Assembly (NCBI GenBank): GCA_951406725.2
Contig: OX597836.1
Coordinates: 46,810,001-46,874,000 of the forward strand
DNA from: Octopus vulgaris
Lineage: Eukaryota
Length of the DNA: 64,000 bases
Direction: 5' to 3'
Of the stretch, positions 15,868 to 16,077 are shown one piece after another (positions within the stretch are counted from its first letter, which is position 1; each line of letters begins with the position of its first letter). The translations under genes and the position numbers were made by a program. Under the pieces are notes generated by a model, which did not search any database, was not told the DNA's origin, and worked only from the letters and a program-made list of their open reading frames with translations.

Positions 15868-16077
15868 ATTACGGAGATGTACTCGCATAGCAAGTAATTT
15901 GATCTGAGATCGTGTGCTGAAACGAAAACAATTGCAGCGTGGAAGGTGTTTATAAGCCATTTAAGAAACACACAAAAGCCGTTCAATTCACTTCAACATT
16001 TAAGTTTAATTTGTCAAAATATTTTCGGCGCTAAAATCCGCGACCTGTTCACTGACAAAAATCCGTGCTGCATCTCG
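15868..16077 (-). mobile_element. Short repeat family H3 in (TA)n
   Basis: Homologous to both arms of 21575-21870; flanked by TA repeats. Confidence 0.75.
16011..16058 (-). ncRNA. Minimal type I hammerhead-like motif, G3-C8 core variant (family H3)
   Basis: Minus strand TTGTCA | GTGAACA | GGTCGC-GGATTTTA-GCGCC | GAA | AATATT | T | TGACAA: 6-bp stem I, palindromic stem III. Second copy 21657-21705(-). Confidence 0.65.

What the first reader, a model, noticed from the sequence alone, without database searches (positions are those of the whole stretch)
16011..16058. G3-C8 swapped hammerhead core (family H3)
GTGAACA swaps both partners of the C3-G8 pair while keeping U4, G5, A6 and A9. It is followed by the same extra G + GTC(G/A)C stem II start as the canonical motif at 62083-62127. 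The second copy (21657-21705) keeps C8 but has A3, and its stem II reads GTCAC/GTGAT. The partial third copy shows GCGAC-GAAA. G8 contributes its 2'-OH to catalysis, so a natural C8 is mechanistically informative.
Basis: partly seen in the sequence, partly recalled or inferred. Interest (0 to 1): 0.8.

Follow-up and report, generated by a model that had tools for sequence, protein, structure and literature searches.

The report
Swapped-core hammerhead in Penelope retrotransposon
A young jumping-gene family with thousands of copies in this animal genome carries a hammerhead RNA motif in which two paired core letters have traded places (G3-C8 instead of C3-G8), and because related elements also keep this pair matched it is likely a slow but working self-cutting RNA, though cutting is untested.

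Summary
On the minus strand, 16010-16059 folds as a minimal type I hammerhead with core GUGAACA. It lies in the end repeat of a young Penelope-like retrotransposon (RT plus C-terminal GIY-YIG). G3-C8 is the family state: 5,888 exact copies, against 6,855 matches with the core left open; 30 of 30 loci picked by the protein; also the oldest subfamily found. Ten related hammerhead families carry C3-G8 (5) or U3-A8 (5), never a mismatch, so the swap looks compensatory.

Against activity: most copies begin at a likely capped start about 16 bases upstream of stem I, and none of 94 begins at the predicted cut. A G3·G8 mismatch sub-lineage still spread. My idea that cutting is needed for long-range spread failed its control.

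Natural U3-A8 and engineered G3-C8 (partial rescue, also in a Penelope hammerhead) are published. I found no natural G3-C8 in nine searches, but four key papers were not held. This scan noted the same swap before, on other DNA of this genome and in other genomes. Verdict: new variant of a known kind, cutting untested.

The parts
16010..16059 (-). Minimal type I hammerhead fold, copy 1 (stem I 7-8 bp, stem II 5 bp with one mismatch, minimal stem III)
   Evidence: sequence; folds
16046..16052 (-). Core strand G3 U4 G5 A6 A7 C8 A9; G3=16052, C8=16047
   Evidence: family state
16027..16045 (-). Extra G (16045) and stem-loop II. C at 16028 is a minority variant; it can re-pair with the extra G and bulge a U
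16017..16026 (-). G12 A13 A14, palindrome AATATT (16023-16018), U17 (16017); predicted cut between 16017 and 16016
   Evidence: sequence; cut site inferred from hammerhead numbering
15870..16075 (-). 206-base solo end-repeat (pLTR) copy of the Penelope-like element, between (TA)n tracts
16073..16076 (-). Likely transcription start (about 16075) with an extra G at 16076, likely copied from the RNA cap
   Evidence: inferred
15870..15960 (-). Likely first 30 codons of the element's ORF, open to the end of the unit; the hammerhead lies upstream of it
   Evidence: inferred, no full-length 5' end was seen
15870..15927 (-). Optional 58-base tail: copies end at unit position about 148 or 206, likely two internal RT start sites
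   Evidence: by analogy with PMC11167929
21574..21706 (-). Inverted arm of an older copy with hammerhead 21656-21706 (A3 at 21699, C8 at 21694, CpG-decayed stem II)
21707..21877 (+). Forward arm of the same insertion, 5'-truncated inside stem II (starts GCGAC-GAAA)
62083..62127 (-). Canonical C3-G8 hammerhead of a sister Penelope-like family (ORF about 50% identical); comparison, not part of the element

Best explanation
This is the small hammerhead motif in the end repeat of a young Penelope-like retrotransposon; its lineage has fixed a G3-C8 pair in place of C3-G8, and it is likely a slow ribozyme that would cut after UUU only as a dimer or with help from the element's protein. Shown: the fold, its place in the element, G3-C8 as the family state in every subfamily sampled, and Watson-Crick pairing of positions 3 and 8 in all 11 families compared. 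Inferred: the swapped pair still positions the 2'-OH of residue 8; two motifs pair through AATATT to supply stem III; transcription starts about 16 bases upstream of stem I; most RNA stays uncut and is the template for the short copies; rare cutting trims tandem transcripts. U17 would avoid the inhibitory G3-C17 pair and may have permitted the swap.
For: 30 of 30 loci picked by the ORF protein alone carry GTGAACA downstream of an RT plus GIY-YIG ORF. 85 of the first 100 core-open matches are exact, 97 have G3, 95 have C8. Oldest subfamily found: 90 of the first 100 have G3, 86 have C8, none has C3. No change reaches 1% of depth at either position in three DNA-type runs of three coded organisms (read from the per-run change tallies). 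Scans that left positions 3 and 8 free found 11 families: 5 C-G, 5 U-A, 1 G-C, no mismatch (one read by eye); 74 of 200,000 shuffles do as well. The G-C family nests among C-G and U-A relatives. Engineered C3G/G8C partly restores cleavage in a Penelope hammerhead, which needs the element's protein (PMC11167929, section read). A G3-C8 variant was reported more active without C17 (PMC3884650, passage, 'data not shown').
Against: No cleavage data. Of 94 arms picked by a 3' motif, 40 start at unit -3 to +5, none at 59-61 (cut at 59/60) and 2 at 57-58; 1 of 290 arms starts at 60 in the wider, core-biased set. A G3·G8 sub-lineage made tens of separate insertions. Within the family the motif is not detectably more conserved than its flanks: 3 of 20 lineage-level variants fall in the 42 structural positions, P=0.39. 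G-C arose once here, so its persistence may be inheritance, and the 11 families are related, so the shuffle value overstates support. The modelled active-type dimer (-27.2 kcal/mol) is slightly less stable than two monomer folds (2 x -14.7) and than the best co-fold (-31.3).
Confidence: 0.6

Rival explanations
1. The motif is a catalytically dead or negligible relic. The swap was fixed by drift in one source lineage after cutting stopped mattering, and thousands of copies simply inherit it.
For: No peak of copy ends at the cut site. The G3·G8 lineage propagated. No within-family excess of conservation. Hammerhead mutants do not impair insertion in vitro in the Anolis element (PMC11167929). Many copies of the sister family carry C instead of A at position 9.
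Against: Two drifting transversions would give a Watson-Crick pair only occasionally. Stems, GAA, A15.1-U16.1 and the palindrome are intact while old subfamily copies average about 8% from their own majority and an old, decayed ORF copy is 65-68% identical to the young one. The mismatch lineage did not become the main lineage, and some of its insertions pair a G8 arm with a C8 arm, so its source may have held an intact copy too.
Confidence: 0.3
2. The letters are held by another job, such as downstream core-promoter elements just after the start site or a binding site for the element's protein, and the 3-8 match is incidental.
For: The core strand lies 24-30 bases after the inferred start site, where downstream promoter elements sit in some animals (recalled, not tested).
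Against: Spacing from the start varies by a base between subfamilies. Related elements change positions 3 and 8 together, which a linear DNA element would not require. The motif is upstream of the likely ORF start, so codon constraint is unlikely.
Confidence: 0.1

Closest known systems
Minimal type I hammerheads (min-HHR) in pLTRs of metazoan Penelope-like elements (Cervera and de la Pena 2014, PMC4209133; read parts 1-2 of 4, supplements searched by term, file 1 not searchable)
   Same: Type I topology, extra nucleotide between A9 and G10.1, G10.1-C11.1, palindromic minimal stem III, place in the pLTR, many solo and inverted copies.
   Different: Core pair G3-C8; the parts read report C3-G8 and U3-A8 only. 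Stem I is longer (7-8 bp against 4-5). Activity untested here.
Natural U3-A8 core variants (Perreault et al. 2011, PMC3088659, passages; S. mansoni Cercyon in PMC4209133)
   Same: Natural covariation of the 3-8 pair; U3-A8 families also occur in this genome and in relatives.
   Different: U3-A8 is two transitions from C3-G8 with a wobble step between; G3-C8 needs two transversions from either and passes through a mismatch.
Engineered C3G/G8C double mutant (Anolis Poseidon PAc hammerhead, PMC11167929, section read; review PMC8495972, passage; Martick and Scott 2006 cited there, not held)
   Same: Identical core pair; a Penelope context; no RNA ends seen at the cut site in that study either.
   Different: Here it is natural and fixed in thousands of copies; the element belongs to another clade (linker Zn-finger-like motif) and the motif is upstream of the likely ORF start.
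Neptune/Nematis-type C-terminal-endonuclease Penelope-like elements (Craig et al. 2021, PMC8557442, passages)
   Same: [quoted passage not shown]
   Different: Tail is 58 bases rather than 30-40; exact clade not resolved.

Membership tests
Hammerhead ribozyme (type I, minimal) | Stems I and II around the core | tested here: met
   family type z -3.5, window copy weaker
Hammerhead ribozyme (type I, minimal) | U4 G5 A6, A9, G12 A13 A14, A15.1-U16.1, H17 | tested here: met
   sequence
Hammerhead ribozyme (type I, minimal) | Literal consensus C3 and G8 | tested here: not met
   G3 and C8; 0 of the first 100 (of 182) non-G3 copies are C3-G8
Hammerhead ribozyme (type I, minimal) | Watson-Crick pair between positions 3 and 8 | tested here: met
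   G-C here; 11 of 11 families paired
Hammerhead ribozyme (type I, minimal) | Palindromic minimal stem III allowing a dimer | tested here: inconclusive
   AATATT is present; modelled dimer is not favoured over other folds
Hammerhead ribozyme (type I, minimal) | Site-specific self-cleavage | not testable with these tools
   no raw RNA reads offered; copy-end proxy shows no peak at the site
Rfam hammerhead families | Covariance-model hit | tested here: not met
   no hammerhead hit up to E 10 on 15990-16076
Penelope-like element, C-terminal endonuclease type | Single ORF with RT and C-terminal GIY-YIG | tested here: met
   903-aa stretch with YVDD motif and PF01541 above cut-off, E 2.6e-6; Pfam RVT_1 did not hit this protein
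Penelope-like element, C-terminal endonuclease type | pLTR with hammerhead downstream of the ORF, inverted 5' arm, optional tail | tested here: met
Penelope-like element, C-terminal endonuclease type | Full-length unit with pLTR at both ends | tested here: inconclusive
   longest copy fetched (L064) is 5'-truncated
Neptune/Nematis clades | CX2-5CxxC linker before the GIY-YIG and (TA)n target | tested here: met
   CX3CxxC in the ORF; (TA)n flanks
Neptune/Nematis clades | Placement in an RT tree with named references | not tested
   no named clade references among the 101 hits

The most novel reading that the evidence does not exclude
G3-C8 is a working, protein-assisted natural hammerhead, and its job is to free the element's RNA from its site of transcription. 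These elements otherwise copy themselves from tethered, uncut transcripts into the same chromosomal neighbourhood, which is why a sub-lineage with a mismatched core stayed almost wholly within 10 Mb of one chromosome. The genome would then hold a natural experiment on what Penelope hammerheads are for.
Probability: 0.15. Interest if true: 0.7.

Novelty: new variant of a known kind. Interest (0 to 1): 0.42.

Why it matters
It would add a third natural Watson-Crick state to the hammerhead's 3-8 core pair, one I found in print only as a laboratory rescue mutant. Standard search patterns (CUGANGA, UUGANAA) miss it, and Rfam gave no hit, so hammerhead counts in animal genomes would be too low and some Penelope families may be wrongly scored as lacking one. 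The family supplies a ready test set (paired, mismatched and sister canonical cores, plus intact young ORFs) for the open question of what Penelope hammerheads do. It does not change the catalytic mechanism: the swap keeps the pair and the 2'-OH.

Tried and rejected
1) 'Cutting is needed for long-range spread.' G3·G8 copies with one loop type cluster on contig C16 (40 of 49), but the matched intact G3-C8 sub-lineage clusters there too (18 of 27). Fisher P=0.17 on these counts, and 0.11 using only the 23 prefix-matched G8 arms I held. Not supported. The first control (251 matches) was unusable: many rows are one insertion carried inside another repeat, or a tandem array.
2) 'G3·G8 is the ancestral intermediate.' The oldest subfamily found has G8 in only 3 of its first 100 matches, and the C16 G8 lineage groups with a G3-C8 copy.
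3) Copy 2 as compensatory evidence: all CpG decay.
4) Within-family selection test: not significant; patterns used to pick loci also fix some stem letters.
5) Copy ends at the cut site: no peak. Two of five listed inverted joints in Logan contigs fall at 16016-16017 (4 contigs in 3 runs): too few to use.
6) Expression: no RNA holder listed, only contigs, so no statement either way.
7) The stretch upstream of the unit looks like an intron 3' end (branch-point-like motif, pyrimidines, AG), but copy ends and the extra G fit a start site better; splicing was not tested.
8) Whole-window Rfam scan returned only microsatellite noise among the 150 of 448 rows shown.
9) Papers not held: Lunse et al. 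(PMC5785218), Hammann et al. 2012 (PMC3334697), Przybilski and Hammann 2007 (PMC1986816), Martick and Scott 2006 (PMC4447102).

Full report
Observation. On the minus strand, 16059-16010 reads as stem I, core G3 U4 G5 A6 A7 C8 A9, one extra G, stem-loop II, GAA, the palindrome AATATT, U17 and the other strand of stem I. The predicted cut is between 16017 and 16016. This copy has a minority C at 16028 that breaks or re-registers stem II; the family type folds better (z -3.5 against -1.5). Rfam does not recognise it.

What it belongs to. The motif lies in a 206-base unit (15870-16075) between (TA)n tracts. A DNA search of the own genome gave 654 candidates, 40 scored, at 95-100% identity. Two of these loci hold part of an RT (YVDD) plus GIY-YIG frame. 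Searching with that protein gave 105 matches, nine listed at 100% identity at the top. The longest fetched frame has PF01541 above cut-off and a CX3CxxC linker. The unit lies about 1 kb downstream of the ORF, often with an inverted partial arm, and copies end at unit position about 148 or 206. This is the layout of Neptune/Nematis-type Penelope-like elements (PMC8557442, passages). The nearest named protein hit, at 58%, is annotated from an octopus. The two arms at 21574-21877 are one older inverted insertion.

Is G3-C8 the family state? Yes. All 30 loci picked by the protein, not by the motif, carry GTGAACA (34 arms; one of the 30 is the locus the query came from). With the seven core letters left open there are 6,855 matches (5 for the reversed control); 85 of the first 100 are exact. 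The exact 19-base pattern has 5,888 matches. Only 182 have another letter at 3, and none of the first 100 is C3-G8. The oldest subfamily I found (779 matches, heavy CpG decay) has G3 in 90 and C8 in 86 of its first 100. In three DNA-type runs from three coded organisms no change reaches 1% of depth at either position (the table is cut, so this is read from its tallies). Copy 2's A3 and stem changes are ordinary decay.

Is the swap compensatory? I scanned 1.52 Mb of fetched DNA with positions 3 and 8 free and found six other hammerhead families: three C3-G8 (including 62083-62127, whose ORF is about 50% identical) and three U3-A8. Nine metagenome loci encode relatives at 42-51%; of the eight whose 3' flank I printed, four show a hammerhead: two C3-G8 (one read by eye, as it has U15.1-A16.1) and two U3-A8. 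So 11 of 11 families pair positions 3 and 8; 74 of 200,000 shuffles do so, a figure inflated by kinship. In a tree of the ORF's C-terminal part (three families without a linked ORF left out, two others linked by a single locus each) the G-C family is one clade (99/98), sister to a clade with C-G and U-A members, with both states outside. G-C is therefore derived and arose once here. Inside the family the motif is not detectably more conserved than its flanks (3 of 20 lineage-level variants in 42 of 206 positions, P=0.39).

Does it cut? Not shown. Only contigs were offered and none is on record as RNA. As a proxy I mapped 5' ends of 94 arms picked by a 3' motif (from 90 loci covering most of the first 100 of 6,836 matches; paired arms and six copies of one passenger insertion are not independent). 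Forty start at unit -3 to +5, none at 59-61, two at 57-58. Logan contigs also show loose ends at 16072-16073. Of 41 arms that start exactly at +1 without the element's upstream letters, 27 have a G before it (about nine could come from the partner arm). That fits copying of a capped transcript starting near 16075 with the hammerhead uncut. The Anolis study likewise found unprocessed RNA to be the main template, cleavage needing the protein, and partial rescue by C3G/G8C (PMC11167929, section read). So the result neither shows nor excludes slow cutting. A modelled dimer through AATATT is possible but not the most stable fold.

A natural mismatch lineage. 216 matches have G3·G8. One sub-lineage puts 40 of 49 matches on contig C16, 37 within 0.6-10.6 Mb, with separate flanks; 500 kb there hold 12-13 G8 arms and 5 C8 arms. 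I tested whether a dead core confines spread. The matched G3-C8 sub-lineage is also concentrated on C16 (18 of 27, 14 at 43.8-53.5 Mb), and the difference is not significant. Local spread is thus a property of these sources, not shown to depend on the core. The lineage does show that a mismatched 3' motif can be copied many times, though some insertions pair a G8 arm with a C8 arm.

Mechanism, committed. Likely a slow, dimer- or protein-dependent hammerhead whose 3-8 pair is reversed (0.6); a dead relic (0.3); constraint from promoter or protein binding (0.1). U17 is common in this clade (8 of 11 families) and would avoid a G3-C17 pair, which a passage in PMC3884650 suggests is inhibitory; this is inference.

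Novelty. Natural U3-A8 is published (PMC3088659, passages; PMC4209133, parts 1-2 of 4 and a term search of two supplements, one further file not searchable). Engineered G3-C8 is published (PMC11167929; PMC8495972, one passage). Nine searches (listings only unless named above; one search was on local hopping) showed no natural G3-C8. I also saw passages of PMC6765202 and PMC6155905 and part 1 of 5 of bioRxiv 10.64898/2026.07.22.740005. Lunse et al., which I recall as a large survey of Penelope hammerhead variants, and three other key papers were not held, so absence from print is not established. Earlier scan notes report the same swap elsewhere in this genome, in other genomes and in phages; these are unchecked leads. 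One of 32 pattern matches in viral contigs (L396) also folds as a G3-C8 hammerhead, which may be chance. Verdict: real, a new variant of a known kind, moderate interest.

Noticed in passing
G000 contig C16, 0.6-10.6 Mb and 43.8-53.5 Mb: Two sub-lineages of this retrotransposon form peaked clusters of separate insertions over about 10 Mb each on one chromosome, like local hopping, which is unexpected for an RNA-mediated element. Young ORF-bearing copies are dispersed, with a smaller cluster on C28.
   Followed up: partly
window 62083-62127 family (L157-L181): More than half of the 25 closest copies of the sister family have C instead of A at core position 9 (CUGAUGC); a metagenome relative (L360) also has C9, with U3-A8.
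   Followed up: no
window 1115 (+), 4734 (-), 53126-53255 (+): Three copies of another Penelope-type hammerhead family whose majority core is U3-A8; its stem II resembles ours with a compensatory U-A/C-G change. The copy at 4734 has C3·A8.
   Followed up: partly
window 16075-16076 and family copies: Most copies begin at one point, often with an extra G, suggesting the RT copies the cap of a short transcript started inside the end repeat.
   Followed up: partly
L359, about 130 bases after the ORF end: Metagenome relative with a C3-G8 hammerhead whose 15.1-16.1 pair is U-A instead of A-U, around a palindrome.
   Followed up: no
L396:151-193 (-): Intergenic G3-C8 (GUGACCA) type I hammerhead-like fold in a viral contig; 1 of 32 pattern matches passed the stem filter.
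   Followed up: partly
L197, L198, L200, L202, L203, L205, L207; G000 C2 206.16-206.19 Mb: One small inverted insertion of this family has been spread with identical flanks, apparently as a passenger in another repeat; elsewhere the motif recurs in a 2.18-kb tandem array.
   Followed up: no
L002, L015 and others, just upstream of the unit: Branch-point-like motif, pyrimidine tract and AG directly before the inferred start, preceded by a long microsatellite-rich 3' region; could be a retained intron end or an initiator.
   Followed up: no
window 16420-17024: 186-base tandem repeat (3.2 copies, 95% match) inside a GC-richer repeat next to the finding; related short repeats occur at 8276-8437 and 28344-28394.
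   Followed up: no
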